DNA of 64,000 nucleotides from the IMG/VR virus record IMGVR_UViG_3300031841_004047; one strand, 5' to 3'. The stretch comes from a virus. The position numbers and the translations under genes are program-made. The notes beneath the pieces are model-generated. The model was given only the letters and a program-made list of their open reading frames with translations. It did no database searches and was not told the DNA's origin. This document shows, in pieces, positions 33,591 to 56,307 of this stretch (position 1 is its first letter; the number at the start of each line of letters is the position of its first letter).

Positions 33591-33609
33591 ATACAAAATG
33601 GAGAAAAAT

Positions 33610-34020
33610 ATGAGTGATTGGGCTTTTGATATCTACCAAATGCATAATAAGTTTGGTGTAAAAGAATGGTTTGAAAATAACAAACATGATAAAGAACTAA
33701 TGAAAACATACCTACGTTTTCGTTTGAATATGTGTAATGAAGAAATGGGTGAATGCTTTGATGCACTCGACAACGAAGATCCTGAAGAAATCGTAGATGG
33801 TCTTATTGATATCTGTGTATTTGCTATCGGTACTCTTGATGTCTTTGGTGTAGATGCCAATGAAGCATGGAATCGTATCTACGAAGCAAACATGGCAAAG
33901 TCACCTGGTGTGAAAGAAGGTAGACCTAATCCATTTGGTTTACCAGATCTAATCAAACCCGACGGATGGGAATCACCTAACCACGAAGGTAATCATGGAA
34001 GTCTCAGCGACCTTTTTTAA
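33610..34020 (+). CDS. All-alpha NTP pyrophosphohydrolase (MazG/PRA-PH-like; possible dCTPase/dUTPase)
   Basis: EEMGE...EIVDGLID...EANMAK; GGAG RBS before ATG 33610. Confidence 0.78.
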   Translation: MSDWAFDIYQMHNKFGVKEWFENNKHDKELMKTYLRFRLNMCNEEMGECFDALDNEDPEEIVDGLIDICVFAIGTLDVFGVDANEAWNRIYEANMAKSPGVKEGRPNPFGLPDLIKPDGWESPNHEGNHGSLSDLF

Positions 34021-35425: not shown

Positions 35426-35995
35426 ATGGCTTACGAGGAAATAAATGGAATACAAATTATAGGCCGTTCCCCTTGGATACCTATTTCAAAAATACCAACA
35501 AAAGATACGGCTGATTTTTTAGATTTAAATGAAAAATATGGTACGTGTGGAATATACCAAGTTGCCGAAACAAAATATATAGAAGAAATAGGTAATGAAG
35601 TAATACACGATAAAATAGGCTATACTGGTAAATCAGGTAGCATTCTTCAAAGAACTTACGATATACGTCAACCAAAAGGTACTCACGGCGCTGGACGTTA
35701 TATCCGTCAAAACGATCTTTGCAAAGAAGCTGAAGTTAAAATACGCTATATTTACACATCTTCGGAAGATTATAAAAGTCTTGAAGACTATATTCATCAT
35801 GAAACAACACGTAATTATGGTTTTCGATTTGCTTGGAAAGACGCGTCACAAGGTAATGTTGGGGTATATTCACAATGGCTTGAATTATCTAAACGATTAA
35901 CAGCTGATGAAATATTATCAGGAATTCCAAATTTAAAAGAATTGGCTATAGAAAAAAACATAGAAGAATTTCAAGAAAGGTTGAATGAAGTATGA
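35426..35995 (+). CDS. GIY-YIG-like endonuclease
   Basis: TCGIYQV...KIGYTGKS..ILQR...LEDYIH. Confidence 0.55.
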   Translation: MAYEEINGIQIIGRSPWIPISKIPTKDTADFLDLNEKYGTCGIYQVAETKYIEEIGNEVIHDKIGYTGKSGSILQRTYDIRQPKGTHGAGRYIRQNDLCKEAEVKIRYIYTSSEDYKSLEDYIHHETTRNYGFRFAWKDASQGNVGVYSQWLELSKRLTADEILSGIPNLKELAIEKNIEEFQERLNEV

Positions 35996-36354
35996 AAGAT
36001 AAGTACTCACTAAAGTTTCTTCAGCGTTGTGCTGAGATACAAATTAAAAAGGGTAATGATTACCAAAACCCAAACTCACGTGTAAGACAAGCACACTACT
36101 ATCCACGTGGTTGTGCTACTATTCTTGACACTATGGCAGCAAAAGTCTTACGTATGCAATCAGTTCTTGAAGCTATGGAACTTGATCCAAACTATCAGCC
36201 AAACTTTGAGTCACTTGAAGACTCGTGTGTTGATATTGCAAACTACGCTTCGTTCTTTGCTGCTTATATGAATGGTGCAATTGATGGCCAACATCCTGAC
36301 TATGATTTTCTAAATCGTCCAAAAAATAAAGTAGAACATATTAGTGAAGAATAA
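35992..36354 (+). CDS. Nucleotide-modification-associated alpha-helical protein (Nmad1/DUF1599-like)
   Basis: KKGNDYQ...AKVLRM...ESLEDSCVDIANYASF. Confidence 0.65.
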   Translation: MKDKYSLKFLQRCAEIQIKKGNDYQNPNSRVRQAHYYPRGCATILDTMAAKVLRMQSVLEAMELDPNYQPNFESLEDSCVDIANYASFFAAYMNGAIDGQHPDYDFLNRPKNKVEHISEE

Positions 36355-37863: not shown

Positions 37864-38346
37864 ATGAGTAAAGCAGGTAAAGTATGGGGTACAACTGAAT
37901 TAATTGAAGCCAATGGTGCTTTAGAGTTTCATCGTATTCAAATGAATAAAGGGGGCGTTTGTTCTAAACATCTTCATGAGTTCAAATGGAATGGGTTCTA
38001 TGTCGAAAGGGGCGTAATGTTGGTTCGTGTCTGGCAGAAAGATTATAATCTAGTGGATGAGACTATTCTATATGAAGGAGATTATACGAAAGTAAAACCG
38101 GGTCTTTATCATCAGTTTGAATGTCTAGAGTCTGGCGTTGCTTACGAACTCTATTGGGCCGAGTTTGCTCATAAAGATATTGTAAGAGAAACTGTTGGAT
38201 ATAAAGAAGAAGGCATGATCCATGATAGCTCTTATTCTTTAAATATTCCAGATATTACCTTTACAATTGATGGAGAAGATGTTAAAATAAACACAGAAAC
38301 TTACACTCTATATGATAAACTAGACGTAGAAAAAATCGGTTGTTAA
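37864..38346 (+). CDS. Cupin (sugar-phosphate isomerase-like)
   Basis: KVWG...CSKHLHEFKWNGFYVERG...PGLYHQF. Confidence 0.75.
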   Translation: MSKAGKVWGTTELIEANGALEFHRIQMNKGGVCSKHLHEFKWNGFYVERGVMLVRVWQKDYNLVDETILYEGDYTKVKPGLYHQFECLESGVAYELYWAEFAHKDIVRETVGYKEEGMIHDSSYSLNIPDITFTIDGEDVKINTETYTLYDKLDVEKIGC

Positions 38347-38453
38347 TTCAAGACTTAATAACAGTAAGTCCGGTGATTGTAATTATCTCCATAATTATTA
38401 TATGGCCAAGTGCGGTAGAAGAATGGAGAAAGAGAAAGAATAAAAATGAGTAG
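38340..38453 (+). CDS. Possible small membrane protein (37 aa)
   Basis: TTG start; LIQDLITVSPVIVIISIIIIWPSAVEEWRKRKNKNE fills the gap exactly. Confidence 0.4.
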   Translation: MLIQDLITVSPVIVIISIIIIWPSAVEEWRKRKNKNE

Positions 38454-39291
38454 ATCTTTAAAGATTACTATTATAGGTCATGGGTTTGTCGGGAAAGCCA
38501 TTGATTATGCTTTTCAGTATAACGTTCAAAAACAAATCATAGATCCTAAAATAGGAGTAAACTTGAGTGACGTAACATTAAACTCCGATGTTACGTTCGT
38601 ATGCGTGCCGACTCCTATGCACGAAAATGGAAAGTGTGACATATCAATAATAAGTGAAGTCATAAAACAAATAAAGCAAAGAAGATCTGGTTTGATAGTT
38701 ATTAAGTCTACCGTTCCACCTGATCAAATAGAAAATCTTTTTAGAGGTACAGCTATATCAAGAATGGTTTACAACCCAGAGTTTCTTACAGAAAGAAATG
38801 CAAATGAAGATATACTAAATCCTTCGATGCATATTTTCGGAGGAGATAATAATGCTACCGAAAGACTAGAAAAAATATATAATGAGTACAGTATATGTAA
38901 ACCATGTCAAGTATTTCATGTTTCTGCTACTGACGCAAGTTTTATAAAATACGGAATAAATACTTTTCTTGCAACTAAACTAATATGGTTCAATGAACTA
39001 TATGACACAGTAAATAATTTTGGAGGCAACTTTGGAAAAATTGCAAACGCTATTGGGGCCGATCCAAGAATCGGACATTCCCATACTCGTGTTCCTGGGT
39101 TTGACAATCGTCGTGGTTTTGGTGGTGCATGTTTTCCCAAAGATGTAAGCGCTTTTGTCAACTTTACGGATCATATGCCTATCTTAGAATATGTTATGAA
39201 TAAAAACAACAATTATAGATTGTCTTATGAAAAAAATGATAGAGAAGTCGAACAAAACGTGAACTATGAGAATAAGAAAGAGAGTATATAA
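38446..39291 (+). CDS. UDP-glucose/GDP-mannose dehydrogenase family protein (lacks C-terminal domain)
   Basis: IIGHGFVG, VCVPTP, IKSTVPP, YNPEFL, GFGGACFPKD. Confidence 0.88.
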   Translation: MSRSLKITIIGHGFVGKAIDYAFQYNVQKQIIDPKIGVNLSDVTLNSDVTFVCVPTPMHENGKCDISIISEVIKQIKQRRSGLIVIKSTVPPDQIENLFRGTAISRMVYNPEFLTERNANEDILNPSMHIFGGDNNATERLEKIYNEYSICKPCQVFHVSATDASFIKYGINTFLATKLIWFNELYDTVNNFGGNFGKIANAIGADPRIGHSHTRVPGFDNRRGFGGACFPKDVSAFVNFTDHMPILEYVMNKNNNYRLSYEKNDREVEQNVNYENKKESI

Positions 39292-39980
39292 TGATAATCC
39301 CTAGTGTAAAAGATATTCGTGAGTTCTTTGTCGGTGAACTTAAAGACGAAGCTTATACTATAGATAAGACCGGAGCTAAGACTATAGAAATGATTGGTGC
39401 TTCGTTCATAGCCGATGAGTCTTCTATATTTGGTACACCTAATACCGACTACATATCTCAAGAAATGTTGTGGTATACAAGCATGTCGACAAATATTAAA
39501 GACATATACGGAGAACACAGAGACCCGCCTTCTGCATGGCAGTATGCCGCGAACCAATTTGGTGAGATTAACTCTAACTACGGTTTGTTAATATATTCCG
39601 AAAAGTATTACAGCCAGTTTGAAAGAGTGTGTGACGAGTTGTTTGAAAACCCTGATGGTCGAAGAGCAACTATGATTTATAACAGACCATCGATATGGGT
39701 GGAGTATAATGAAAATGGAAAATCAGATTTTATTTGTACTAACGCTGTCACTTACTATATTCGTGATAATCTACTGCATGCTGTAGTTCAAATGCGTTCC
39801 AATGATGTTGTGTATGGTTATAAGAATGACTGGGCATGGCAAAACCGAGTGATGCACGACATAGTTCATGATCTTAATTTCTCAAATGGAAATGAAGATT
39901 TGGAAGTAGGTAAGATGGTTTGGCAGGTTCAGAACTTGCATGTATATGAACGTCACTTTGATCTAGTAAAAAATATTTAA
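39291..39980 (+). CDS. gp42: dCMP hydroxymethylase (T4 gp42-like)
   Basis: KTGAKTIEMIGASF, GEINSNYG, DGRRA, SDFICTN, MRSNDVVYGYKNDWAWQ (cytosine-specifying Asp), LHVYERHF. Confidence 0.9.
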   Translation: MIIPSVKDIREFFVGELKDEAYTIDKTGAKTIEMIGASFIADESSIFGTPNTDYISQEMLWYTSMSTNIKDIYGEHRDPPSAWQYAANQFGEINSNYGLLIYSEKYYSQFERVCDELFENPDGRRATMIYNRPSIWVEYNENGKSDFICTNAVTYYIRDNLLHAVVQMRSNDVVYGYKNDWAWQNRVMHDIVHDLNFSNGNEDLEVGKMVWQVQNLHVYERHFDLVKNI

Positions 39981-39990
39981 GGATGTTCTT

Positions 39991-40224
39991 ATGAGCAATT
40001 TGATATTGATCACCGATATCCTTGAAACAAAAGTAAGAAAAGAAAAAGAACTACAGTACTATCAGAAAGAATTAGAAAAACTTCAGAAAAAAATGTTCTT
40101 TGTTAAAAAGGATATTGAACTAACAAACCTGATCATTAATATGATTGAGAAAGAAAATATAATAGACTTTAAAGAGCAAGTCTTAATACGACAGGAAAAA
40201 AATGATACCACCTCAGATAATTAA
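39991..40224 (+). CDS. Hypothetical coiled-coil protein
   Basis: ITDILETKVRKEKELQYYQKELEKL. Confidence 0.75.
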   Translation: MSNLILITDILETKVRKEKELQYYQKELEKLQKKMFFVKKDIELTNLIINMIEKENIIDFKEQVLIRQEKNDTTSDN

Positions 40225-40684
40225 GATTTTTGAAAAAGATATGGCTAAAGGTCTTCACTGGACCACTGTGATCACCGAAAGAGCAATGCTAGCAGTAATA
40301 GGTGCTTTAACTGTAATCGCAGCTAGTTTTAATGTGTACTCAATGATAGTATCAATGAAGATAGAATTAGCGGATTTGTTTCTTTTATTCATCTATACAG
40401 AAATAGTCGGCATGGTTGGTGCTTACTACATAAGTAATAGGATACCAGTTACTCTTCCTATCATTATAGCTATGACTGCTTTATGTAGGCTTATTATTCT
40501 TCATTCTAAAGATGCTAACCCATGGGTACTAGTAGCAGAAGCTGGAGCGATCGTCGTTCTAGCCGGAGCCGCGTATCTCATGAGTGCTAAGGAAAAACTA
40601 AGCCTGGAAAAGAAAGAAAAGCGAAAAAAAGAATATGATGCGGGGTTCAAAAAGACAGAAAAAAAAGATTTAGACGATGAATAG
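40202..40684 (+). CDS. psiE: Phosphate-starvation-inducible PsiE family membrane protein
   Basis: LADLFLLFIYTEIVGMVGAYY...RIPVTLPIIIAMTALCRLIIL. Confidence 0.82.
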   Translation: MIPPQIIKIFEKDMAKGLHWTTVITERAMLAVIGALTVIAASFNVYSMIVSMKIELADLFLLFIYTEIVGMVGAYYISNRIPVTLPIIIAMTALCRLIILHSKDANPWVLVAEAGAIVVLAGAAYLMSAKEKLSLEKKEKRKKEYDAGFKKTEKKDLDDE

Positions 40685-41126
40685 TAGGTATACTAAATGG
40701 GATAGAAGATATCTGGATCTGGCATATACGGTTAGTAAATGGTCAAGAGATCCATCAACACAAATCGGCGCGGTCGCGATTGGATCCAAGGGTCAAGTTT
40801 TATCTCAAGGTTATAACGGCTTTCCTAGAGGAATAAAAGATACTCTAGATCGATATCATCATAGAGAAACTAAATATAAGCTTATTGTTCATGCTGAACA
40901 AAATTTAATATACAATGCTACATACAATGGTGTCTCATTGGATGGATCTACACTGTATGTAACGGGACTTCCGGTTTGTTCCGAATGTGCTAAAGGTGTT
41001 ATACAAGTCGGTATCAAAAGAGTTGTTATGCCACATATAGATGATATGAAATCTTGGAAAGAATCTTGGGAGTTGTCTGCTTCTATGTTCAGAGAAGCCG
41101 GAATATTATGGGATTTCATAATATAA
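40677..41126 (+). CDS. cd: dCMP deaminase
   Basis: SRDPSTQIGAV, GYNGFPRG, HAEQN, PVCSECAK. Confidence 0.92.
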   Translation: MNSRYTKWDRRYLDLAYTVSKWSRDPSTQIGAVAIGSKGQVLSQGYNGFPRGIKDTLDRYHHRETKYKLIVHAEQNLIYNATYNGVSLDGSTLYVTGLPVCSECAKGVIQVGIKRVVMPHIDDMKSWKESWELSASMFREAGILWDFII

Positions 41127-41158
41127 AAATTTTAATTTTTTGATTGATCACTTTATAG

Positions 41159-41187
41159 TTTACATAACTATACTACTATGATATAAT
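41159..41187 (+). promoter_or_regulatory. Early/middle promoter for the UDG-GT-cupin-NTase-MTase operon
   Basis: TTTACA-N17-TATAAT. Confidence 0.82.
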
Positions 41188-41207
41188 AACAAAAAATAGG
41201 AAAAACA

Positions 41208-41702
41208 ATGAAAATAAAAAGCTTAATAGTCATGGGTCTTAATCCTTCTAAGAGTCCATCACGAAAAGGTTCTACTATCCCAAAGCTACACTCTTGGATG
41301 TATGACAGCCTAGAAGTAGACTCATTCTTTATGTCTAATGTTTCTCATGATCCAGACTGGGATTTTAAATATAGATCTATAGATAAAAATCATGTCATTG
41401 AAACTTTAAGAGATCATGATATCATAATAGCTTTAGGTAGCACGGTGTATAACTACTTAAAGAGGATGGGGTTTAAGAATATGTTTAAGCTTCCTCATCC
41501 ATCACCTAGGAATCGTCAGTTAAATGACAAATCTTTCGAAATAAAAATTTTAAATGAATGTAAAGAGTATTTGACTCAGGAAGGCTTCTATGAAAATAGC
41601 AATAGGCAAAGTGGGAAAATCAATAAAGTTTGGTCCGGAGTCGTTAAGCACCGGAAAAAAATCAATGACGGCGGGCTCGATAGATGCACGTGTAATCTTT
41701 GA
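41208..41702 (+). CDS. Uracil-DNA glycosylase superfamily protein
   Basis: IVMGLNPS, IIALG, LPHPSPRNR. Confidence 0.7.
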   Translation: MKIKSLIVMGLNPSKSPSRKGSTIPKLHSWMYDSLEVDSFFMSNVSHDPDWDFKYRSIDKNHVIETLRDHDIIIALGSTVYNYLKRMGFKNMFKLPHPSPRNRQLNDKSFEIKILNECKEYLTQEGFYENSNRQSGKINKVWSGVVKHRKKINDGGLDRCTCNL

Positions 41703-42828
41703 ACTTTTAATTAGGTTTAATCCACAACACACGTTTTATATAGTTGGTAGATCAAACTATTCTCGTCTTAAACCTGAGATAAGAGATAAGATCAACGTTC
41801 ATAACAACGTTGTTGATCTGTGGAGTGGTTTTAACGAGTGGTTTGATAATCAAGACGATAAAGATGAAATGACGGAGTCATGGAGGTACATGGATCACGT
41901 CATTGAATCCGGACATACATTTGACACGGGTATATTTATTGCAGGAGGAGTACTTGAGTACGCGGTTCAAGGAAAAACTCTAAAGAACGGCGAACCTATT
42001 AAAACTTTAAACGCAGCGACTAAGTATGCAGCTCCTATTCATCACTTCATAAATATTACGAAGCTACCATACGTGATGCTGGTCACTGATCCAAGATGCT
42101 ACCCGAAACCAACAAAAGATCTTATGGTACCACCTCGTAGAATATTGTCTCAGTACGATGAAGTTGTAGACGTCGAACATCGTGTAACTTATGAGGATGA
42201 CGATATGGTCATCGATAAAGTTAAATCCGTATACTCCGGTATAGAATCTCTATACGTAGTCGAAGAACAGTGGAACGAAAAAGAAACAAGTCTTGAAGAC
42301 TTCTTTGGTGATCCAGACCCAGCCCCTGAACGTGACATCAACATGGTACTATTCCTAAACGAAGGTAACCCTTCAAGATATGAAGACTTAAAGAAATATA
42401 TCTTAAATGACATAGAAGATGTTAACGTCTATGGAGTATGGAACGATAAAGCTTTACAAGATCCACGAATAGAGCAGATAGCGATGGCTGAGCTTACTCA
42501 TCTTTTCCCTAGGATTAGATACACGTTTTGTATACCAATCGCTCCCGGTTGGGCGACCGGAAAGTTTTGGGAGATGACTAAGTACGGAATCATTCCGTTT
42601 ATGCATCCGAGTTATGATGAAGGTAAAAACATTGGTTTTCCAGAGGAGCTAAGAGTTAAAGATTCAAAAGATTTGTTAGAAAAAATAAGTATGTACAACT
42701 CTGATAAATTATGTTATAATAATATACATGAAAGGCTTCAGAATATGGTCACTCCGGATCATAAATCTGGCAAGTTTATAAATGATATGGTTATGAAAAA
42801 TGTTATGGAGATAGTCAATGAAGATTGA
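41590..42828 (+). CDS. DNA glycosyltransferase, T4 beta-glucosyltransferase-like (GT-B)
   Basis: MKIAI start, VTDPR (cf. T4 Bgt TDIR catalytic Asp), ILSQ, KFWEM, and a C-terminus matching Bgt as recalled. Confidence 0.7.
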   Translation: MKIAIGKVGKSIKFGPESLSTGKKSMTAGSIDARVIFELLIRFNPQHTFYIVGRSNYSRLKPEIRDKINVHNNVVDLWSGFNEWFDNQDDKDEMTESWRYMDHVIESGHTFDTGIFIAGGVLEYAVQGKTLKNGEPIKTLNAATKYAAPIHHFINITKLPYVMLVTDPRCYPKPTKDLMVPPRRILSQYDEVVDVEHRVTYEDDDMVIDKVKSVYSGIESLYVVEEQWNEKETSLEDFFGDPDPAPERDINMVLFLNEGNPSRYEDLKKYILNDIEDVNVYGVWNDKALQDPRIEQIAMAELTHLFPRIRYTFCIPIAPGWATGKFWEMTKYGIIPFMHPSYDEGKNIGFPEELRVKDSKDLLEKISMYNSDKLCYNNIHERLQNMVTPDHKSGKFINDMVMKNVMEIVNED

Positions 42829-43150
42829 AAAAAGACATATTTCTGAGTTTACTGGTGGATGGTTTATTGGAAACTTTGAGCCATCGGTTCTTAAAAGCGA
42901 TGATTTCGAAGTATCAATTAAGCTGCATCCTAAGGGAGAAGTTTGGCCAAAGCATTATCACAAAGTGGCTACCGAGTATAACTATGTGATAGACGGCATA
43001 GTAGAAATAGATGGCATAAAATATGAAAAAGATGACATCTTCATTATTCATCCAAACTTTGTCGTAGATCCCAATTTTCTTGAAGACTGCAGAATAGTAT
43101 GTGTAAAAACACCATGCGTACCTGGAGATAAGTATGAGGTTGAAAGATAA
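42818..43150 (+). CDS. Cupin protein
   Basis: GGWFIGNFEPS, KHYHKVATEYNYVIDG, VKTPCVPGDKY. Confidence 0.75.
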   Translation: MKIEKRHISEFTGGWFIGNFEPSVLKSDDFEVSIKLHPKGEVWPKHYHKVATEYNYVIDGIVEIDGIKYEKDDIFIIHPNFVVDPNFLEDCRIVCVKTPCVPGDKYEVER

Positions 43151-44215
43151 ATGAGAGTAATTATTCCAATGGCCGGACTGGGGTCAAGATTTACAAACAA
43201 GGGATATAAGACACACAAACCGTTAATCGAAGTTAACGGTAAAACTCTTATTAGATACGCAGTTGAGTCATTAAACATAAGTGCTCATTACGTATTCGTA
43301 TGTAGGGACTTAGGAGGTTCATACCTTGAAAACTTAGAATCAGAAATAAAAGACATTACTTACGGTCGATACGAAATAAAAGTAATAGATCATATGACGT
43401 CTGGAGCAGCAGAAACCGCTCTTTTAGGTTGTGATAGCGAGTATGACGGAGAATTAATTGTCACCAACTGTGATCAGTATTTAGACTGGGACTCTGAAGC
43501 TTTCCTTAAAGAATCAAGAAAATATGATGGTTCTGTACTAACTTACGACTCGACTGATCCTAAAAATTCTTTCGTAGAGTTCGCGAACAAAAAAGTAGTA
43601 AGAATGGTCGAGAAACAAGCTATATCAAACAATGCTTTAGTAGGAGTACACTACTGGAAAAAAGCATCGGATTTCATTAACTCTACTAAATCTTCTCTAG
43701 CTAACTTTACCTCAAAAGAATCTTATGTGTCTGAAACATATAACTACTTAATAGCTGATGGTAAAAAAATTGGAGCAATATCAATTATGGATGGTACTTA
43801 TTGGTCCACCGGAACTCCTGAAGATCTGGCATATTTCAAAGGGATGATATCCGAATATTATACCTCTAAAAATAATACATATTTTATTGATCTTGATGGT
43901 ACAATCTTTATGCATGCACATAGGTACTCCAACTTAAAAAATGATGTTCAGTTGTGTCCAGGTGTTCTTGAAACTTTAGATGAACTTGATTCGAGAGGTG
44001 ATACGATCATACTTGTTTCGGCAAGAAAAGAGTCTGCGAGATCAATGACTGAGAAATTACTTGATGATTTCATGATTCCTTATGATCAGCTTATACTTGG
44101 TGTATCTCAAGGATGTAGGATAGTCATAAACGATATTATCACGAAGTCATCTTTTCCAAGAGCAAGAGCCGTGAATGTAATCACGGACAAAGGATGGAAA
44201 GCAAACGATTTATGA
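43151..44215 (+). CDS. Sugar-phosphate nucleotidyltransferase fused to C-terminal HAD-like domain
   Basis: IIPMAGLGSRF..KGY..HKPLI, NCDQ, GTPEDL; then FIDLDGTI HAD motif I. Confidence 0.82.
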   Translation: MRVIIPMAGLGSRFTNKGYKTHKPLIEVNGKTLIRYAVESLNISAHYVFVCRDLGGSYLENLESEIKDITYGRYEIKVIDHMTSGAAETALLGCDSEYDGELIVTNCDQYLDWDSEAFLKESRKYDGSVLTYDSTDPKNSFVEFANKKVVRMVEKQAISNNALVGVHYWKKASDFINSTKSSLANFTSKESYVSETYNYLIADGKKIGAISIMDGTYWSTGTPEDLAYFKGMISEYYTSKNNTYFIDLDGTIFMHAHRYSNLKNDVQLCPGVLETLDELDSRGDTIILVSARKESARSMTEKLLDDFMIPYDQLILGVSQGCRIVINDIITKSSFPRARAVNVITDKGWKANDL

Positions 44216-45402
44216 ATTATGCGAGTATAGTACCTTTAATCGGAGGAGAGACATTCGGTATGCAAGAAGTGTTTGGTCAAAAGCCAGACTACATCTTATC
44301 ATACTCGGATTTTGAAGCAAATGATAGACAACTTCTTAACTATTATAATAATAGTGTTCCTTATTATAAGCTTGATCAAGGTGGTTCTGCCCCTCACAGA
44401 GTGGATGTTATCAATACTGTATGCCCTTGTGCGGGTCTTTCTTCACTTAGTCCTACTAGCAGCGCTAGTAACACTACTAATGATTGGATGGTCAAGTCTG
44501 CCCAGTATATTCTAGAAGAAGTACAACCGACTGTCTTTTGGGGAGAAAATGCTCCTAGACTAGCCAGCAAGATGGGTGAGCCTATAGTAAATAAGCTAAG
44601 GAAGATCGGGAAAGATAATGGTTACACCATGACTCTTTATAAAACAAAATCTTTACTTCATGGCTTATCTCAAGTAAGAGACAGATGCTTTTACTTCTTT
44701 TGGAAAGGCAACCATGTTCCAGTTTTTGCATACTACAACAACTTATTAAGGGAGAGTATCGAAGATACTATAAGGTCATCATCTAGTAATCAAATAGACG
44801 AAATGTATGATATGCAGGCCAAGACTTCTAAGCCTTCAGATGATCCATACTATAAATATGTTTTAGAAGAGATTGAAGATGGTATAACACATCAAGATTT
44901 TTTTAAAAAAATTAAAAAAACTACCAATCCATTGGATTATATCGAGCAAAAAGGTATTAAATATAATACTGTAGCTAAGTGGATGAAGATGAAGGGATAT
45001 GACAAGTATGAAGTCAAATGTCAAAGAATGCATGAAAAGCTTGAGTCTGGTGGAAACATAATGAGAAAGGCTACTACAATCGCAAAGGATTATATCGGCG
45101 CTTTTGTAGGTAACATGGCAACTGACATTACACACCCTGATGTTGATAGGTACATAAACGTAAGAGAAGCTCTTGATATAATGAAGATGCCTAAAGATTT
45201 TCAGCTTCAAGGAGGAACAAAAAACATTAATATGATATGTCAAAACGTTCCGGTTACTACTGCTAGAGATATGGCTTTTAATGTATCAGCATACCTAGGA
45301 GGACATTTAACTACTCATAAATCTGATTTTGCTGTTCAGGATAATAAAACAACTAAGTTTTGGAGAGAGCCTGAACCCTCAACTCTTGAAGAGTTTTTGT
45401 AG
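44212..45402 (+). CDS. Atypical C5 cytosine DNA methyltransferase
   Basis: CPCAGLS (catalytic PC), GENAP, HGLSQVRDR, INVREA...PKDF, QNVP; motif I degenerate (VPLIGG). Confidence 0.72.
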   Translation: MNYASIVPLIGGETFGMQEVFGQKPDYILSYSDFEANDRQLLNYYNNSVPYYKLDQGGSAPHRVDVINTVCPCAGLSSLSPTSSASNTTNDWMVKSAQYILEEVQPTVFWGENAPRLASKMGEPIVNKLRKIGKDNGYTMTLYKTKSLLHGLSQVRDRCFYFFWKGNHVPVFAYYNNLLRESIEDTIRSSSSNQIDEMYDMQAKTSKPSDDPYYKYVLEEIEDGITHQDFFKKIKKTTNPLDYIEQKGIKYNTVAKWMKMKGYDKYEVKCQRMHEKLESGGNIMRKATTIAKDYIGAFVGNMATDITHPDVDRYINVREALDIMKMPKDFQLQGGTKNINMICQNVPVTTARDMAFNVSAYLGGHLTTHKSDFAVQDNKTTKFWREPEPSTLEEFL

Positions 45403-45431
45403 TTTACAACATAATGAAAATAGTTTATAAT
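45403..45431 (+). promoter_or_regulatory. Early/middle promoter for uvsX
   Basis: TTTACA-N17-TATAAT. Confidence 0.82.
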
Positions 45432-45460: not shown

Positions 45461-46510
45461 ATGTCGATTATGGACAAGCTCAAAAAGAACTCAAAGCTAA
45501 GTCACACCGAAGTTCTTTCTGAGTCTAAATTCTTTACTGAAAAAGATATGGTACCAACTGACGTACCGATGATTAACGTTGCGTTATCTGGTTCAGTAGA
45601 TGGTGGCTTAGCACCTGGGCTAACAGTTCTTGCTGGCCCTTCAAAACATTTTAAAACATCATTTGCGTTACTAATGGCTGCAGCTTATATGAAGAAGTAT
45701 CCTGAAGCCGTTATGTTATTTTATGATTCCGAGTTTGGTTCACCTGAAGCTTACTTCGAACAATTTGAAGTTGATACATCACGAGTACTTCACACACCAA
45801 TCACAAACGTAGAAGAATTAAAGTTTGATCTCATCGGTCAGCTTGAAGAACTTGATCGTGAAGATAAAGTGGTTATAGTTATCGACTCAATCGGTAACTT
45901 AGCGTCTAAGAAAGAAATGGAAGACGCACTGAATGAAAAATCAGTTGCTGATATGTCAAGGGCTAAAGCACTGAAAGGGTTGTTTCGTATGTGTACACCC
46001 TATCTAGCCATGAAGAATATCCCTCTTCTTGCTGTTAACCATACTTATAAAGAAATAGGTTTGTTTCCTCGTGATGTTGTTGGCGGTGGTACAGGTATAT
46101 ACTACTCAGCTGATAACATTTGGATTCTAGGTCGTCAACAAGATAAGAAGGGTACAGAAATTCAAGGGTATCACTTCGTAATCAATGTGGAGAAATCACG
46201 ATATGTTAAAGAAAAGTCTAAGATTCCTATCACTGTTAGTTGGGACGGTGGTGTACGTAATTTTTCTGGTTTACTCGATGTTGCTCTTGCCGGTGGTTAT
46301 GTTACTAAACCTTCTAACGGTTGGTATGCTAGAACTGACAGACAAACTGGAGAGGTCGGTCCGAAAGTCAGACAAGAGCAGACTCTAGAAAAAGAATTTT
46401 GGGATCCGATCTTCGCGGAAACAGATTTCAAAGATTTTTTAAAGAAACAGTATTCTATAGGACACCAAGAACAAGTATCAATGGAATCCATTGTTGAGGA
46501 AGAAGTATGA
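45461..46510 (+). CDS. uvsX: RecA-like recombinase UvsX
   Basis: AGPSKHFKT, FYDSEFG, IDSIGNLAS, ADMSRAK, GGTGIYYSAD. Confidence 0.97.
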   Translation: MSIMDKLKKNSKLSHTEVLSESKFFTEKDMVPTDVPMINVALSGSVDGGLAPGLTVLAGPSKHFKTSFALLMAAAYMKKYPEAVMLFYDSEFGSPEAYFEQFEVDTSRVLHTPITNVEELKFDLIGQLEELDREDKVVIVIDSIGNLASKKEMEDALNEKSVADMSRAKALKGLFRMCTPYLAMKNIPLLAVNHTYKEIGLFPRDVVGGGTGIYYSADNIWILGRQQDKKGTEIQGYHFVINVEKSRYVKEKSKIPITVSWDGGVRNFSGLLDVALAGGYVTKPSNGWYARTDRQTGEVGPKVRQEQTLEKEFWDPIFAETDFKDFLKKQYSIGHQEQVSMESIVEEEV

Positions 46511-46800
46511 TTGAGAATGAACATTATGAACTTATTCCATCCGACAATGAGAACTGGAACGTTAGAATTCTAAAAGGTATATACAATGAGACCGTCATAA
46601 CGTATGGATCCCTTAGAATACAGGATGATCCAATAAATGATGTAGGAATATTAAAGTTTGATTATGATATTGTCTCTACGCCGGATGAATCTCTAGACTC
46701 AAATGACGAAGACTTTAAAAATTTTTGTGGTGACATCCTCGTATCAATAATTGAAAGAGCTGTTGAAAAAGACCAGATAATTAAAAGAGAGGTTGAATGA
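46507..46800 (+). CDS. gp40-like protein (uvsX-gp41 position)
   Basis: Synteny with the T4 uvsX-40-41 order; YGSLRI, FCGDILVSII. Confidence 0.55.
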   Translation: MIENEHYELIPSDNENWNVRILKGIYNETVITYGSLRIQDDPINDVGILKFDYDIVSTPDESLDSNDEDFKNFCGDILVSIIERAVEKDQIIKREVE

Positions 46801-48173
46801 ATACAAATATAGAACAAGTTGTTCTAAAAAACATTTTAACTAACGAAAAATATATGCGAAAGGTTTTGCCTTTCGTTAAACCAGATTACTTTGAGGGCAT
46901 TTATCGAACATTATTTACACAAGCTGGAAAATTTGTAGGAAAATATAATAAGCTTCCAACCGCGGAAGCCTTTAAGATTGACATTGATGAAGCCGATGTT
47001 TTCAATGAAGAACAGTATCGCCACGCAGTAGAAATAATTCCAAGTCTATTTGAAAGAGAAGAAGCCGACGATCAATGGTTAAGTGACGTTACCGAGAAGT
47101 GGTGTCAAGATCGTGCTCTTTACAATGCTGTTATGGAGTCAATTAACATCATTGACGGTAAGCATAAGACTCTTACAAAAAATGCTCTACCGGATATCTT
47201 ATCAAAAGCGCTCGGTGTTTCTTTTGATCGTAATATCGGTCATGACTACATCGAAAATTTTGAAGAACGGTGGGACTTCTATCACCGTGATGAAGAAAGA
47301 TTAGAGTTTGATCTTGACTACTTCAACAAGATTACAAAGGGTGGTCTACTAAATAAGACTCTAAACGTATGTCTTGCTGGTACCGGCGTTGGTAAGTCTT
47401 TATTTATGTGTCACTGTGCAGCCTCAAATCTCAATCGAGGTAAGAATGTTTTGTATCTTACGATGGAAATGGCGGAAGAAAGAATCGCTGAACGTATCGA
47501 TGCTAACTTACTTGATATACCCATTAATCAGCTTGAACATCTCAGTAAAGAAATGTTTGCGGAACGAGTTCATGGTCTATCTAAAAAGACAGAGGGTAAG
47601 TTAATCATTAAAGAGTATCCTACTGGCTCGGCTCACACCGGACACTTTCGTGCTTTGTTAAACGAGCTAAAGTTGAAAAGAACTTTTGAACCGGATATTA
47701 TATACATCGACTATCTCAATATTTGCGCATCAAGTAGAATGAAAGGAATGGGAGGTGCGATCAACTCATACAACTACATTAAAGCAATTGCTGAAGAGAT
47801 ACGAGGCCTTGCGGTGGAGTTTGACGTACCGATCGTATCTGCAACACAGACGACTCGTTCTGGTTATACTAACTCGGATATTGGGCTTGAAGATACGTCC
47901 GAGTCTTTTGGATTACCAGCAACCGCGGATCTCATGTTCGCCCTTATCTCGACAGAAGAGCTTGAAAGCATGGGACAACTTGCAGTCAAACAATTGAAGA
48001 ATAGATACAATGATCCAACATATAAGAAAAGATTTGTAATCGGTGTAGATAGGTCAAAGATGAGGCTGTTTGATGCTCATGAAGATCAACAAACACTCAT
48101 AGATGATACGCCAGTGTTTGACAAATCTGATCAGGGTATGGACGTGAAAAAATTTGTAGATTTTAAGCTATGA
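46797..48173 (+). CDS. gp41: Replicative helicase gp41
   Basis: LAGTGVGKSLFMC, TMEMAEERIAERIDANL, IKEYPT, IDYLNIC, SESFGLPATAD. Confidence 0.97.
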   Translation: MNTNIEQVVLKNILTNEKYMRKVLPFVKPDYFEGIYRTLFTQAGKFVGKYNKLPTAEAFKIDIDEADVFNEEQYRHAVEIIPSLFEREEADDQWLSDVTEKWCQDRALYNAVMESINIIDGKHKTLTKNALPDILSKALGVSFDRNIGHDYIENFEERWDFYHRDEERLEFDLDYFNKITKGGLLNKTLNVCLAGTGVGKSLFMCHCAASNLNRGKNVLYLTMEMAEERIAERIDANLLDIPINQLEHLSKEMFAERVHGLSKKTEGKLIIKEYPTGSAHTGHFRALLNELKLKRTFEPDIIYIDYLNICASSRMKGMGGAINSYNYIKAIAEEIRGLAVEFDVPIVSATQTTRSGYTNSDIGLEDTSESFGLPATADLMFALISTEELESMGQLAVKQLKNRYNDPTYKKRFVIGVDRSKMRLFDAHEDQQTLIDDTPVFDKSDQGMDVKKFVDFKL

Positions 48174-48430
48174 AGACATTAGATACACACCAACAGCTCT
48201 TTGTTATAACCGCTGAAGAATGTGGTGAGTTAACACAGGTCTGTTCAAAGATATTAAGAAATGCTGCCGTAGATGATAAATGGAATAAAAAACTTTTAGA
48301 AGAAGTAGGCGATATCTACTGCATGATCGATTTAATTGTACAGCATGGATATTTAAACTGGGAAGATATTACTAAAAGAAGTAATGTAAAGAAACAAAAG
48401 TTGCTAAAGTGGAGCAACCTTATAACATAG
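48170..48430 (+). CDS. MazG-like pyrophosphohydrolase
   Basis: AEECGEL...LLEEVGDI. Confidence 0.7.
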   Translation: MKTLDTHQQLFVITAEECGELTQVCSKILRNAAVDDKWNKKLLEEVGDIYCMIDLIVQHGYLNWEDITKRSNVKKQKLLKWSNLIT

Positions 48431-48723: not shown

Positions 48724-48971
48724 ATTGGGAAGAGTTTGAAGAAGAGTCTTTTAAGTCAGTATACGAGTCATATTTAAGAATAACAATTGGGCTGATTGAA
48801 AGTGATCATGATCCATTAATGTTAGCAGCAGTATTATCGACTATAGGGTTAAGCATATATAGAACTATGCTGAACGAAACAGATTATGACTTAATGATTG
48901 ATGCTATCGGCAGTTTTAAAGATCAAATAAAAACATTTGAAAATTCTAGCCCAAAAGGACATCTGCATTGA
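48720..48971 (+). CDS. Hypothetical protein
   Basis: ATGA-coupled ORF. Confidence 0.65.
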   Translation: MNWEEFEEESFKSVYESYLRITIGLIESDHDPLMLAAVLSTIGLSIYRTMLNETDYDLMIDAIGSFKDQIKTFENSSPKGHLH

Positions 48972-49849
48972 AAGTAAGACTAGTAGGTTATACTCAACCA
49001 TCAGAGGAGTTTATGAATGACTTCGATACCCCCAAAGATCTCATCGCCTTCTGTGCGCGTGTATCCAACCCATCAAACCAAAACAACAAAGAGACGTCAG
49101 AAAAACTCATCCGGTATCTTATTAGGCATAAGCACTGGAGCCCGCTCGAAATGGCGTCAGCAACACTCGAAGTCACAACCACGAGAGACATCGCGAGACA
49201 ATTCCTTAGACACAGGTCATTCTCTTTTCAAGAGTTTAGTCAGCGTTATGCTGATCCTAATGATCTTGATGATACTTTTGTTATGAGAGAAGCTAGACTT
49301 CAAGACACTAAGAATCGACAAAACAGTATAGAAGTCGAAGACATAGCGCTTGATATGAAATGGAAAAGCATGCAGAATCAAGTGATACGTCAAGCAAAAG
49401 AAGCTTATAAGTGGGCTATTGAAAATGGAATAGCAAAAGAACAAGCTCGAGCTGTATTACCGGAAGGTAATACCGTTTCGAAACTATATGCGAATGGTAC
49501 AATTAGATCATGGGTTCACTATATCGAACTAAGATCTGCAAATGGTACACAAAAAGAACATATGGAACTAGCCAAGGAAATTGGCAAAGTTATAAGTAAA
49601 ATTTTTACACTGGAAAAGGAGGAAAGAATGGGACGTAAGATTTCAACCTATTACTCGGATCACGGTCAAGGACATGCTGAAGTTCACTTTGATTTTAAAG
49701 AAGAGCAAGCTTATATTAAGTACTTTGATAATAATGAAAAGATGTTCTTTACTGAAGACTTTCCAGGTAAATCACTTCGTTATGTTGAGGATGCAGCAGA
49801 AAACTGGGCACTCGGTATAAAGAAGCTAGAAGATGTTCAAAGCGCATAG
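48968..49849 (+). CDS. thyX: Flavin-dependent thymidylate synthase ThyX with in-frame C-terminal extension
   Basis: HKHWSPLEM, IARQFLRHRSFSFQEFSQRYA, AKEQARAVLP; internal AAGGAGG+ATG at 49628. Confidence 0.93.
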   Translation: MKVRLVGYTQPSEEFMNDFDTPKDLIAFCARVSNPSNQNNKETSEKLIRYLIRHKHWSPLEMASATLEVTTTRDIARQFLRHRSFSFQEFSQRYADPNDLDDTFVMREARLQDTKNRQNSIEVEDIALDMKWKSMQNQVIRQAKEAYKWAIENGIAKEQARAVLPEGNTVSKLYANGTIRSWVHYIELRSANGTQKEHMELAKEIGKVISKIFTLEKEERMGRKISTYYSDHGQGHAEVHFDFKEEQAYIKYFDNNEKMFFTEDFPGKSLRYVEDAAENWALGIKKLEDVQSA

Positions 49850-56305: not shown

Positions 56306-56307
56306 TT

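What the first reader, a model, noticed from the sequence alone, without database searches (positions are those of the whole stretch)
37864..45402. Cytosine-hypermodification locus with its own sugar-supply pathway (candidate new DNA glyco-modification)
Seen: a close T4 gp42-like enzyme (DFICTN, RSND..YKNDWAWQ), a Bgt-like glycosyltransferase, a UDP-sugar dehydrogenase directly upstream of gp42, two cupins, a nucleotidyltransferase-HAD fusion, dCMP deaminase and a UDG-like gene within 7.5 kb. ThyX elsewhere (48968) can cover dTMP synthesis. Established: T4 makes hmdC with gp42 and glucosylates it from host UDP-glucose without any sugar genes, whereas RB69-type phages that attach arabinose carry their own sugar-activation genes. 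Inference: this phage builds a non-glucose donor (uronic acid, pentose or rarer sugar) and transfers it to hydroxymethyl-C, giving a possibly undescribed modified base.
Basis: partly seen in the sequence, partly recalled or inferred. Interest (0 to 1): 0.88.

Follow-up and report, generated by a model that had tools for sequence, protein, structure and literature searches.

The report
Phage cytosine sugar-modification gene island
An uncultured marine T4-like phage has an enlarged version of T4's "hydroxymethyl-cytosine plus sugar" gene slot that includes its own sugar-activation genes, so its DNA cytosines probably carry a sugar other than plain glucose; this kind of system is already known, but this version is untested.

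Summary
39291-39980 is a T4-type dCMP hydroxymethylase: E 4e-71 to T4 gp42, with the catalytic Cys, the cytosine-specifying Asp, and RSND, which lacks the D169N mark of RB69-type 5-hydroxy-C synthases. 41590-42828 folds as GT-B (pLDDT 90), and T4 beta-glucosyltransferase is its best solved match (Z 21.2). The island fills the T4 slot pol ... 42 - beta-gt - uvsX - 41.

Comparative data link the sugar genes to DNA modification:
- 50 of 52 GT loci have the hydroxymethylase upstream.
- 31 of 35 long loci with the short sugar dehydrogenase have a hydroxymethylase or a TAGT DNA glycosyltransferase within 10 kb.
- PMM, cupin and nucleotidyltransferase sit directly beside DNA GTs in relatives.

- an upstream phosphomannomutase;
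- a C5-methyltransferase-fold gene that follows the GT in 57 of 58 loci;
- a polymerase-like clamp peptide on both the GT and that methyltransferase.

The most likely product is glycosyl-hmC made from a phage-built NDP-sugar, possibly a hexuronic acid. The sugar itself is unproven. Sugar-diverse cytosine modifications, including HexA and Kdo, are already published, so this is a new variant and not a new kind. Other first-stage notes of this scan covered the same stretch.

The parts
32804..33589 (+). Phosphomannomutase-type HAD-IIB enzyme (hexose-6-P to hexose-1-P), directly after the DNA polymerase
   Evidence: PF03332 PMM, E 1.8e-20; TIGR01484. Homologues lie contiguous with cupin160, a small nucleotidyltransferase and a TAGT DNA GT in L101-L105, L113.
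33598..34020 (+). MazG/PRA-PH-like NTP pyrophosphohydrolase. It is a candidate dCTPase; that role is inferred.
   Evidence: PF01503; phrog_671. Present in 39 of 81 GT loci. Best isolate relatives are in Ochrobactrum and Rhizobium phages.
35992..36354 (+). Small all-alpha 'hydrolase' (DUF1599-like) that travels with the hydroxymethylase; function unknown
   Evidence: phrog_18404/1485. Lies just upstream of TS in 53 GT loci. A 50%-identical homologue lies immediately upstream of dCMP hydroxymethylase in Serratia phage Muldoon.
37864..38346 (+). Cupin, likely a sugar or sugar-phosphate isomerase (PMI/lyxose-isomerase-like lead)
   Evidence: Cupin_2 24.9 bits; phrog_7851; weak WbuC cupin hit. Some Atlas neighbour clusters carry MannoseP_isomer or Lyx_isomer. 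It is 78-93% identical in relatives, next to PMM, NTase and DNA GT genes.
38446..39291 (+). Short NDP-sugar 6-dehydrogenase (UGDH/GMD family) lacking the C-terminal UDP-binding domain
   Evidence: PF03721 + PF00984; best PDB matches are UDP-glucose dehydrogenases, E 1.8e-24. NPEFLTE, K..N and GGACFPKD are invariant in the family. The family is uniformly 270-290 aa. In 31 of 35 long loci it lies within 10 kb of a TS-type hydroxymethylase or TAGT.
39291..39980 (+). dCMP hydroxymethylase (T4 gp42 type)
   Evidence: E 4e-71 to 1b5e/1b49. Cys in DFICTN; Asp at the L143, D169 and N177 positions of E. coli ThyA. Only E 1.6e-10 to 9iqc/9iqu.
39991..40224 (+). 77-aa ORF, a strain-variable insertion
   Evidence: Contigs in all four runs laid join 39998 to 40207, skipping 208 bases.
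40202..40684 (+). PsiE-like membrane protein; role in the island unknown
   Evidence: PF06146, E 7e-18. Not found in any related locus.
40677..41126 (+). dCMP deaminase
   Evidence: PF00383, E 5e-19; phrog_174, E 3e-43. Present in 48 of 81 GT loci.
41159..41187 (+). Promoter-like site TTTACA-N17-TATAAT ahead of the UDG-like / GT / cupin / NTase-HAD / C5MT gene string
   Evidence: 11 of 12 match in the intergenic gap. Identical sites lie at 33562 and 45403. The overall count is not above shuffles.
41208..41702 (+). Minimal UDG-superfamily protein. The family is about 120-130 aa; here the ORF reads 38 aa past the family's usual stop, into the GT gene.
   Evidence: PF03167 25.4 bits. Family alignment has invariant HPS..NR. 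AF2 pLDDT 87.7. Foldseek top hits are family-4 UDG, TDG-hmU complexes, SMUG1 and UdgX (E 1.8e-3 or weaker).
41590..42828 (+). GT-B DNA glycosyltransferase, positional counterpart of T4 beta-gt. An internal loop (residues 233-239) reads SLEDFFG, matching the polymerase's C-terminal peptide.
   Evidence: AF2 pLDDT 90.4. T4 BGT is top by Foldseek (E 2.7e-9) and by VIA-align (Z 21.2, rmsd 4.1, 311 aligned). TS lies upstream in 50 of 52 loci. The peptide is conserved, and in distant members it moves to the C-terminus.
42818..43150 (+). Small metal-binding cupin (110 aa), co-inherited with the NTase-HAD gene
   Evidence: phrog_24762; Atlas neighbours are viral cupin clusters. Present together with NTase-HAD in the 10 loci of the closest GT clade and in the P0070 contig.
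43151..44215 (+). Sugar-1-phosphate nucleotidyltransferase fused to a HAD-IIIA phosphatase
   Evidence: NTP_transf_3 / rmlA_long / AglF-type hits and HAD-IIIA; phrog_3980. The HAD part is 27% identical (E 9e-8) to the stand-alone HAD that precedes the NTase-kinase gene of Pseudoalteromonas phage XG4. The same NTase family also occurs fused to kinases.
44212..45402 (+). C5-cytosine DNA methyltransferase-fold protein with a non-canonical motif I and a C-terminal STLEEFL peptide. It is a conserved partner of the GT.
   Evidence: PF00145, E 4.5e-16. PC, ENAP, QxRxR, RE and QNVP are invariant, with PLIGG in place of FxGxGG. Follows the GT in 57 of 58 loci, with a gap of 7-2492 bases. Also found in all 11 AGT-like loci and in none of the clear TAGT loci (the one exception, L168, has only a 24% TAGT match).
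45461..48173 (+). UvsX, a 97-aa ORF and the gp41 helicase: the right-hand border, as in T4
   Evidence: PF21134/PF00154 and PF03796. Tequatrovirus order is pol - imm - 42 - beta-gt - uvsX - 40 - 41.
48968..49849 (+). ThyX, the flavin-dependent thymidylate synthase that can make dTMP
   Evidence: PF02511, E 5e-44.

Best explanation
This island is an enlarged version of the T4 '42 - beta-gt' slot, lying between the DNA polymerase and uvsX.

Proposed pathway:
1. Before replication, the gp42-type enzyme converts dCMP to 5-hydroxymethyl-dCMP. This assignment is shown by active-site signature; the activity itself is inferred.
2. MazG-like pyrophosphatases probably deplete dCTP. dCMP deaminase plus ThyX keep dTMP supplied.
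3. hmC enters the DNA through the polymerase.
4. After replication, a GT-B enzyme whose nearest solved relative is T4 beta-glucosyltransferase transfers a sugar to the hydroxymethyl group. It carries the polymerase's clamp-binding-like peptide, so it probably works behind the fork.
5. The donor is made by phage enzymes: PMM (hexose-6-P to hexose-1-P), a cupin isomerase, a sugar-1-P nucleotidyltransferase fused to a HAD phosphatase, and a short NDP-sugar 6-dehydrogenase.

There is no SDR decarboxylase or epimerase here, unlike in most relatives. The end product is therefore most simply an NDP-hexuronic acid, which would give hexuronosyl-hmC. A hexose or another derivative cannot be excluded.

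A C5-MTase-fold protein and a mini-UDG are co-transcribed partners. Their roles are unresolved.
For: Hydroxymethylase:
- E 4e-71 to T4 gp42, with Cys and Asp at the L143, D169 and N177 positions.
- The D169N mark of 5hoC synthases (PMC13326640) is absent.

GT:
- pLDDT 90.4. T4 BGT is the top match by Foldseek and by VIA-align (Z 21.2, against 19.2 for the best GT4 enzyme).

Synteny:
- The order matches Tequatrovirus and Serratia phage Muldoon: pol ... 42 - GT - uvsX - 41.

Linkage:
- TS lies upstream in 50 of 52 GT loci.
- GT homologues in Enterococcus Denvervirus and Pseudoalteromonas phage XG4 also sit beside TS homologues and sugar-activation genes.

Sugar genes tied to DNA GTs:
- The short dehydrogenase lies within 10 kb of TS or TAGT in 31 of 35 long loci.
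- It is contiguous with AGT-SDR or TAGT-SDR strings.
- PMM, cupin160, NTase and TAGT are contiguous in L101 and similar loci.
- Phage C48C1 has the dehydrogenase but no TS. It carries a Tet_JBP gene instead.

Other support:
- Dehydrogenase catalytic residues are invariant.
- The clamp-like peptide [ST]LE[DE]F[FL] occurs only three times in the window's long ORFs: polymerase C-terminus, GT loop and C5MT C-terminus. In the GT family it is kept either as a loop or as a C-terminal tail.
- UDG-like, GT, cupin, NTase-HAD and C5MT overlap or abut one another behind one promoter-like site.
- The cluster is collinear in contigs from four studies.
Against: - No chemistry is available. The sugar, the acceptor and full replacement of C are all inferred.
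- The dehydrogenase lacks the UDP-binding domain, so its substrate is uncertain.
- No dNMP kinase for hm-dCMP and no SDR were found among the window ORFs I scanned. The rest of the genome is not held.
- The GT's margin over generic GT4 enzymes is only about 2 Z units, with 12% identity to BGT.
- Proximity in a hypervariable slot could partly reflect shared ancestry of the loci and not function.
- A conserved C5 methyltransferase is hard to reconcile with fully C5-substituted DNA.
- The phage has a second glycan island (53.7-62.5 kb), so sugar nucleotides have other possible uses.
Confidence: 0.6

Rival explanations
1. Plain T4-like glucosyl-hmC. The GT uses host UDP-glucose. The PMM, cupins, NTase-HAD and dehydrogenase are auxiliary metabolic genes for envelope, capsule or virion glycans, or they only boost the UDP-glucose pool.
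For: - Pelagimyophage and cyanomyophage literature reads UDP-glucose dehydrogenase and GTs as LPS-related genes (PMC7029224).
- The window has a separate glycan island with GT25 genes, methyltransferases and a second HAD-NTase.
- The closest GT clade mostly lacks the dehydrogenase, cupin160 and PMM.
- The dehydrogenase family is very widespread, with more than 7000 hits.
Against: - The sugar genes overlap or abut the GT and TS genes.
- The dehydrogenase sits directly beside DNA GTs of three families.
- The variable sugar genes always lie between TS and C5MT/uvsX.
- T4-type phages that use host UDP-glucose carry no such genes.
Confidence: 0.2
2. RB69-type chemistry. The TS homologue makes 5-hydroxy-dCMP and the GT builds an ether-linked glycoside, such as arabinose, on 5-hydroxycytosine.
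For: - RB69 and DLP3 TS homologues were long annotated as gp42 (PMC13326640).
- The HAD plus NTase components resemble AfhF and the AfhE N-terminal domain.
Against: - The diagnostic D169N is absent: RSND is kept, as in T4.
- The protein is about 55% identical to T4 gp42, but reaches only E 1.6e-10 to 9iqc/9iqu.
- No SIS isomerase or kinase domain was found in the island.
Confidence: 0.05
3. Non-canonical chemistry. Either the short dehydrogenase (which has no UDP-binding domain) oxidises a primary alcohol that is not on an NDP-sugar, such as the sugar already on DNA or the hydroxymethyl group itself. Or the C5-MTase-fold protein performs non-methyl chemistry on hmC. Either route would give a base beyond simple glycosyl-hmC.
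For: - The whole dehydrogenase family lacks PF03720 yet keeps the catalytic Cys, Lys, Asn and Glu.
- Its stop overlaps the gp42-like start.
- C5MT has PLIGG in place of FxGxGG. It follows the GT in 57 of 58 loci, although C5 should already be occupied.
Against: - The dehydrogenase is usually paired with an SDR epimerase/decarboxylase-type gene (31 of 35 loci). It also occurs in TAGT loci without a TS gene. Both fit ordinary NDP-sugar chemistry.
- All other C5-MTase motifs are intact, so plain methylation of residual C remains possible.
Confidence: 0.1
4. The GT glycosylates something other than DNA, such as a protein or lipid, and the phage DNA carries bare hmC.
For: GT-B is a generic fold, and GT4 enzymes score close behind BGT. 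There is no Pfam membership in a DNA-GT family.
Against: - It occupies the position of T4 beta-gt.
- It is linked to TS in 50 of 52 loci.
- It carries the polymerase's C-terminal peptide.
Confidence: 0.05

Closest known systems
T4 / Tequatrovirus gene 42 (dCMP hydroxymethylase) - beta-gt module
   Same: - Same genomic slot: pol ... 42 - GT - uvsX - 41.
- Hydroxymethylase about 55% identical, with the same active-site signature.
- GT-B enzyme whose best solved match is T4 BGT.
   Different: - The GT is only about 12% identical to BGT and has no sequence-level hit to it.
- The island adds PMM, two cupins, NTase-HAD, a short sugar dehydrogenase, a mini-UDG, a PsiE-like protein and a C5-MTase-fold gene.
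- T4 uses host UDP-glucose and has none of these.
RB69 / DLP3 / HY126 arabinosyl-5-hydroxycytosine system (PMC13326640)
   Same: - TS homologue, GT-B transferases and phage-encoded NDP-sugar supply clustered near the polymerase.
- HAD phosphatase and sugar-1-P nucleotidyltransferase components.
   Different: - Those TS homologues carry D169N and make 5hoC. This one keeps Asp.
- Their pathway needs a SIS isomerase and a kinase domain, neither seen here.
- This island has PMM and a 6-dehydrogenase instead.
- The HY126 GT (9iqz) scores lower than BGT (Z 15.7 against 21.2).
Metavirome MT + 5mYOX (TET) + GT pathways that put HexA, Kdo, heptose and glycans on hmC (bioRxiv 10.1101/2023.12.21.572611)
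   Same: - Sugar-diverse hmC hypermodification, with GT-B enzymes resembling T4 beta-GT and accessory sugar-activation genes.
- That survey found GT-B genes near thymidylate-synthase homologues in about 28% of contigs.
   Different: - Those reconstituted pathways make hmC after replication, from 5mC.
- Here hmC is made before replication by a gp42-type enzyme.
- The C5-MTase-fold gene is not accompanied by any TET/JBP gene in the window ORFs scanned.
Pseudoalteromonas phage vB_Psh_XG4 (PP712099.1) and Enterococcus Denvervirus phages (Planchet, 9183)
   Same: - Cultured phages with homologues of this GT (28-31% identity) beside TS homologues.
- XG4 has the string TS - HAD - NTase-kinase - GT - GT2 - C5MT.
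   Different: - XG4 uses an NTase-kinase fusion (RB69-like architecture) and has no dehydrogenase in the stretch read.
- Their DNA modifications have not been reported in the papers I could search.

Membership tests
T4 gp42-type dCMP hydroxymethylase | Thymidylate-synthase fold with the catalytic Cys (T4 Cys148) | tested here: met
   PF00303, E 6.6e-16. DFICTN aligns to T4 DFMCTN.
T4 gp42-type dCMP hydroxymethylase | Asp at the ThyA N177 position (cytosine specificity) and an acidic residue at the L143 position (water access) | tested here: met
   KND aligns to T4 RND; SDF aligns to T4 SDF. The rule comes from PMC13326640.
T4 gp42-type dCMP hydroxymethylase | Produces 5-hm-dCMP from dCMP and methylene-THF | not testable with these tools
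   Needs an enzyme assay, or expression with a dNMP kinase followed by LC-MS.
5-hydroxy-dCMP synthase (RB69 gp48 type) | Asn in place of ThyA Asp169 (D169N) | tested here: not met
   RSND keeps Asp, in the window and in four relatives. The rule comes from PMC13326640 section 28.
T4 beta-glucosyltransferase family | GT-B two-domain fold closest to BGT | tested here: met
   Z 21.2, rmsd 4.1, 311 of 351 residues aligned; the next family scores 19.2. Foldseek E 2.7e-9.
T4 beta-glucosyltransferase family | Detectable sequence membership | tested here: not met
   No PDB chain at E <= 10 by phmmer. Pfam gives only a weak Glyco_trans_1_2 hit. No PHROG.
T4 beta-glucosyltransferase family | Gene lies between gene 42 and uvsX | tested here: met
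   Window gene order compared with Tequatrovirus and Muldoon.
T4 beta-glucosyltransferase family | Transfers glucose from UDP-glucose to hmC in DNA | not testable with these tools
   Donor and acceptor need biochemistry.
UDP-glucose/GDP-mannose 6-dehydrogenase | NAD-binding and central domains with the catalytic Cys, Lys, Asn and Glu | tested here: met
   PF03721 and PF00984. GGACFPKD, K..N and NPEFLTE align to 2y0e and are invariant.
UDP-glucose/GDP-mannose 6-dehydrogenase | C-terminal UDP/GDP-binding domain (PF03720) | tested here: not met
   The protein ends after the central domain at 281 aa. The whole family is 270-290 aa.
C5-cytosine DNA methyltransferase | Motifs IV (PC), VI (ENV), VIII (QxRxR), IX and X | tested here: met
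   PCAGLS, GENAP, QVRDR, REAL..MP and QNVPV are invariant across 21 sequences. PF00145, E 4.5e-16.
C5-cytosine DNA methyltransferase | Motif I FxGxGG (SAM binding) | tested here: inconclusive
   The family has an invariant PLxGG in its place. Pfam does not align the first 65 residues. SAM binding was not tested.
UDG superfamily | UDG alpha/beta fold with the HPSP-type motif | tested here: inconclusive
   Top Foldseek hits are nearly all UDG-superfamily chains, but E is 1.8e-3 or weaker and TMq is 0.67 or lower. The protein is only about 125 aa. HPS..NR is invariant, and the first motif varies.
RB69/HY126 Afh UDP-arabinose pathway | SIS arabinose-5-P isomerase and a sugar kinase domain fused to the NTase | tested here: not met
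   No SIS or APH domain in any island ORF. The NTase is fused to HAD instead.

The most novel reading that the evidence does not exclude
The island makes a base that goes beyond 'hmC plus a ready-made sugar', by one of two routes.

Route 1: the dehydrogenase, which lacks a UDP-binding domain, oxidises the sugar or the hydroxymethyl group after it is already on the nucleotide or on DNA.

Route 2: the C5-MTase-fold protein is not a plain methylase but acts on hmC or glycosyl-hmC behind the replication fork. It has a non-canonical motif I and a clamp-binding-like tail, and it is co-inherited with GT-B DNA glycosyltransferases in 57 of 58 loci.
Probability: 0.12. Interest if true: 0.85.

Novelty: new variant of a known kind. 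Interest (0 to 1): 0.56.

Why it matters
Near-identical copies of this island occur in seawater, estuary and biofilm metagenomes from nine studies. Relatives run to hundreds of IMG/VR contigs.

If the reading is right, an abundant marine T4-like lineage carries fully substituted, sugar-acid-decorated cytosines. That would have several consequences:
- It would affect how these phages are sequenced, because of library and basecalling biases.
- It would change how their hosts can restrict them.
- It would change what the 'LPS-type' auxiliary genes of marine myophages are thought to do.

The island also gives a compact set of testable parts:
- a Bgt-fold GT with a polymerase-like clamp peptide;
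- a dehydrogenase family lacking its nucleotide-binding domain;
- a C5-MTase-fold partner whose presence in an hmC phage is unexplained.

A cultured relative, Pseudoalteromonas phage XG4, is available for the bench work.

Tried and rejected
- Whole-genome search of the window's own genome: none is held. The absence of a dNMP kinase, a gp56-type dCTPase or an SDR could therefore only be checked among window ORFs.
- phmmer against PDB found nothing for the GT, C5MT, the UDG-like protein or the 120-aa hydrolase.
- Sequencing runs: 20 holders, all kept as contigs, and no RNA holder listed. No raw or nanopore reads were available, so no modification signal could be read.
- Window NTase against the XG4 NTase-kinase: only a 38-residue match at E 0.001. 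They are not close homologues.
- I first asked whether the short dehydrogenase might oxidise hm-dCMP directly. I now rate this low: the dehydrogenase is usually paired with an SDR, and it also occurs in TAGT and Tet_JBP phages that have no TS gene.
- I asked whether C5MT is merely a syntenic core gene before uvsX. I reject that, because it is missing from 24 of 26 same-synteny loci that lack a GT-B GT. That Fisher test is small (p 0.016) and the loci are phylogenetically related.
- The promoter scan as a whole is not enriched over shuffles. Only the three identical intergenic sites are worth noting.
- Literature searches for a described marine dCMP-hydroxymethylase/GT system found nothing specific.

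Full report
**What is there**

All genes lie on the + strand and are tightly packed. After the family-B DNA polymerase (30318-32849) the order is:
- PMM-type phosphomannomutase (32804-33589; PF03332)
- PRA-PH/MazG-like pyrophosphohydrolase (33598-34020)
- primase
- several small ORFs
- a 120-aa all-alpha 'hydrolase' (35992-36354)
- a cupin (37864-38346)
- a short NDP-sugar 6-dehydrogenase (38446-39291)
- a TS homologue (39291-39980)
- a 77-aa ORF
- a PsiE-like membrane protein
- dCMP deaminase (40677-41126)
- a UDG-like ORF (41208-41702)
- a 412-aa GT (41590-42828)
- a 110-aa cupin
- an NTase-HAD fusion (43151-44215)
- a C5-MTase-fold protein (44212-45402)
- UvsX, a 97-aa ORF and the gp41 helicase
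- a MazG-like ORF (48170-48430)
- ThyX (48968-49849)

The nearest sequenced phage is the Kyanoviridae phage C48C1 (polymerase 56% identical), followed by cyanomyophages at about 47%.

**The hydroxymethylase**

phmmer gives E 4e-71 to T4 dCMP hydroxymethylase over the whole length. The catalytic Cys is present (DFICTN against DFMCTN) and so is the cytosine-specifying Asp (KND against RND).

This call needs care. Lee et al. 2026 (PMC13326640) showed that the 'gp42' homologues of RB69 and DLP3 are flavin-dependent 5-hydroxy-dCMP synthases, and that ThyA D169N is their diagnostic mark. The window protein and four relatives keep Asp there (RS[NC]D). The window protein matches 9iqc/9iqu only at E 1.6e-10. 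Those entries carry deposit codes next to the HY126 GT 9iqz, so they are probably the HY126 enzyme; that link is my inference. I therefore file the window enzyme as T4-type.

**The glycosyltransferase**

There is no sequence hit to any solved chain and no Pfam or PHROG family.

A family of about 406-aa marine proteins was found (alignment A1). It gave an AF2 model with pLDDT 90.4. The top six Foldseek hits are T4 BGT entries (E 2.7e-9). VIA-align gives Z 21.2 (rmsd 4.1, 311 of 351 residues aligned), against 19.2 for the best GT4 enzyme, 16.8 for T4 AGT and 15.7 for the HY126 GT. The fold is GT-B and Bgt is the nearest structure, but the margin is modest.

Position adds weight. In a Tequatrovirus the order is pol - imm - 42 - beta-gt - uvsX - 40 - 41. 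In Serratia phage Muldoon it is pol ... hydrolase - 42 - x - GTs - uvsX. The window GT occupies the beta-gt position.

**Comparative evidence for the GT**

I fetched eighty IMG/VR loci with a GT homologue.
- Of 52 loci with at least 5 kb upstream, 50 have the TS homologue.
- Of 58 loci with at least 5 kb downstream, 57 have the C5-MTase-fold gene, 7-2492 bases after the GT.

More distant homologues in cultured phages keep the link. Enterococcus Denvervirus phages have the GT next to a 'thymidylate synthase/pyrimidine hydroxymethylase', a nucleotide kinase and two further GTs. Pseudoalteromonas phage XG4 has TS - HAD - NTase-kinase - GT - GT2 - C5MT.

**Are the sugar genes for DNA?**

The dehydrogenase keeps every catalytic residue of UDP-glucose dehydrogenases. 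However, the whole family of 270-290 aa proteins lacks the C-terminal UDP-binding domain.

In contexts from public assemblies it sits as follows:
- AGT-like GT - SDR - dehydrogenase - C5MT - UvsX (L006)
- TAGT - SDR - dehydrogenase (L007)
- a TS island that also has KdsA/KdsB-like genes (L005)

Among 80 IMG/VR loci, 35 are at least 14 kb long. Of those 35, 31 have a TS-type hydroxymethylase (17) or a TAGT (15) within 10 kb, and 31 have an SDR.

C48C1 has the SDR-dehydrogenase pair but no TS gene. It carries a Tet_JBP protein instead.

PMM and cupin160 (78-93% identical) lie contiguous with a small nucleotidyltransferase and a TAGT in several loci.

The HAD half of the window's NTase-HAD is homologous to the stand-alone HAD that precedes XG4's NTase-kinase gene (E 9e-8). 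The NTase family also occurs fused to kinases. Both echo the AfhE/AfhF logic of the RB69 pathway.

I read these genes as a donor-supply pathway. The window has PMM, a PMI-like cupin lead, an NTase and a 6-dehydrogenase but no SDR. The simplest product is therefore an NDP-hexuronic acid. This step is inference only.

The C5-MTase-fold protein keeps motifs IV, VI, VIII, IX and X but has an invariant PLxGG where FxGxGG is expected.

It tracks GT-B DNA GTs and not synteny alone:
- It is present in 57 of 58 Bgt-like loci and in all 11 AGT-like loci.
- It is absent from the clear TAGT loci; one locus with a weak 24% TAGT match (L168) has it.
- It is absent from 24 of 26 same-synteny loci without a GT-B GT.

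Why an hmC phage keeps a C5-acting enzyme is unexplained. It might methylate residual C, or it might do something else.

Following a lead from earlier notes of this scan, I checked the clamp-like peptide.
- The polymerase ends in ATLEDFFG.
- The GT has SLEDFFG in a low-confidence loop.
- C5MT ends in STLEEFL.
- These are the only three matches to [ST]LE[DE]F[FL] in the window's long ORFs.
- In the GT family the peptide is conserved in the loop. In the most distant members, which lack the loop, it sits at the C-terminus.

This looks like a movable short linear motif. It supports action on replicating DNA.

**The UDG-like protein**

The family is about 120-130 aa with invariant HPS..NR. The model has pLDDT 87.7. 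Its best Foldseek matches are nearly all UDG-superfamily chains: family-4 UDG, TDG bound to hmU, SMUG1 and UdgX. The E-values are weak (1.8e-3). It is a minimal UDG fold. Removal of hmU that arises from hmC deamination is a plausible role, but it is untested. In the window the ORF reads 38 aa past the family's usual stop and overlaps the GT by 113 bases.

**Reality of the locus**

Near-identical sequence is held by 20 runs from nine studies. Contigs from four studies cover the cluster collinearly. The only recurrent difference is a 208-base deletion that removes the 77-aa ORF.

**Novelty**

Three published systems already establish glycodiverse cytosine modification:
- RB69/DLP3/RL38J1 glycosyl-5hoC (PMC13326640)
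- the Thanatos pentose (PMC12838424)
- metavirome MT + 5mYOX + GT pathways that install HexA, Kdo and other sugars, together with a survey linking GT-B genes to ThyS (bioRxiv 10.1101/2023.12.21.572611)

The pelagimyophage literature instead read such genes as LPS-related (PMC7029224).

This island is a new variant. It combines T4-type pre-replicative hmC with a Bgt-fold GT, a PMM/NTase/short-dehydrogenase supply route, and a C5-MTase-fold partner. No chemistry has been done on it.

Noticed in passing
window 32829-32846, 42292-42312, 45385-45399: The peptide [ST]LE[DE]F[FL] occurs only at the polymerase C-terminus (ATLEDFFG), in a disordered loop of the GT (SLEDFFG) and at the C5MT C-terminus (STLEEFL). 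In distant GT homologues that lack the loop, the same peptide sits at the C-terminus. It looks like a sliding-clamp-binding motif shared by the polymerase and both DNA-modifying enzymes.
   Followed up: partly
window 44212-45402; loci L008-L168: The C5-MTase-fold gene tracks GT-B DNA glycosyltransferases (57 of 58 Bgt-like loci, 11 of 11 AGT-like loci). It is absent from the clear TAGT loci and from loci with other module types, although all share the uvsX synteny. Its role in a phage with C5-substituted cytosine is unexplained.
   Followed up: partly
window 39999-40206: A 208-base stretch carrying most of the 77-aa ORF is missing from contigs in all four metagenome runs laid. One run holds both forms. 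It is a strain-level indel inside the island.
   Followed up: partly
window 41583-41702: The UDG-like ORF reads through the position where its relatives stop (...YENSNR*). It continues 38 aa into the GT gene, giving a 113-base overlap.
   Followed up: partly
window 24285-25487: Phage-encoded ATP-dependent PEP carboxykinase (PF01293, E 1e-89). A homologue also lies upstream of the modification island in L006. It may be a gluconeogenic auxiliary gene that feeds sugar-phosphate supply.
   Followed up: no
window 53749-62497: A second glycan island: a beta-phosphoglucomutase-type HAD fused to a sugar-1-P nucleotidyltransferase (54953-56305), three methyltransferase-like genes and two GT25 genes. 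It could decorate the DNA sugar further, or it could serve a non-DNA glycan.
   Followed up: partly
window 33562-33590, 41159-41187, 45403-45431: Three identical TTTACA-N17-TATAAT sites lie in the gaps before PRA-PH, before the UDG-like/GT operon and before uvsX. The scan as a whole is not enriched over shuffles.
   Followed up: no
window 35992-36354; L170 4857-5321: The 120-aa all-alpha 'hydrolase' has a 50%-identical homologue immediately upstream of dCMP hydroxymethylase in Serratia phage Muldoon. It also lies upstream of TS in 53 marine loci. It is an uncharacterised companion of gp42-type enzymes across distant T4-like phages.
   Followed up: partly
L005 1806-9799; L006 1498-10002; L007 6097-8858: Sister islands swap the sugar and GT parts.
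- L005: KdsA-like, CMP-Kdo-synthetase-like, dehydrogenase and SDR.
- L006: QueC-like, radical SAM, AGT-like GT, SDR, dehydrogenase and C5MT.
- L007: TAGT, SDR and dehydrogenase.
The slot is a hotspot of modification diversity.
   Followed up: partly
L169 3584-5002 (phage C48C1, OQ984149.1 49583-51001): The nearest sequenced phage lacks a TS homologue. It encodes a 472-aa Tet_JBP-domain protein followed by two unannotated proteins of about 340 aa, and it has the SDR-dehydrogenase pair next to uvsX. This suggests a post-replicative route to a glycosylated base.
   Followed up: partly
window 40202-40684: A PsiE-like membrane protein sits between the hydroxymethylase and dCMP deaminase. It is found in none of about 160 related loci.
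   Followed up: no
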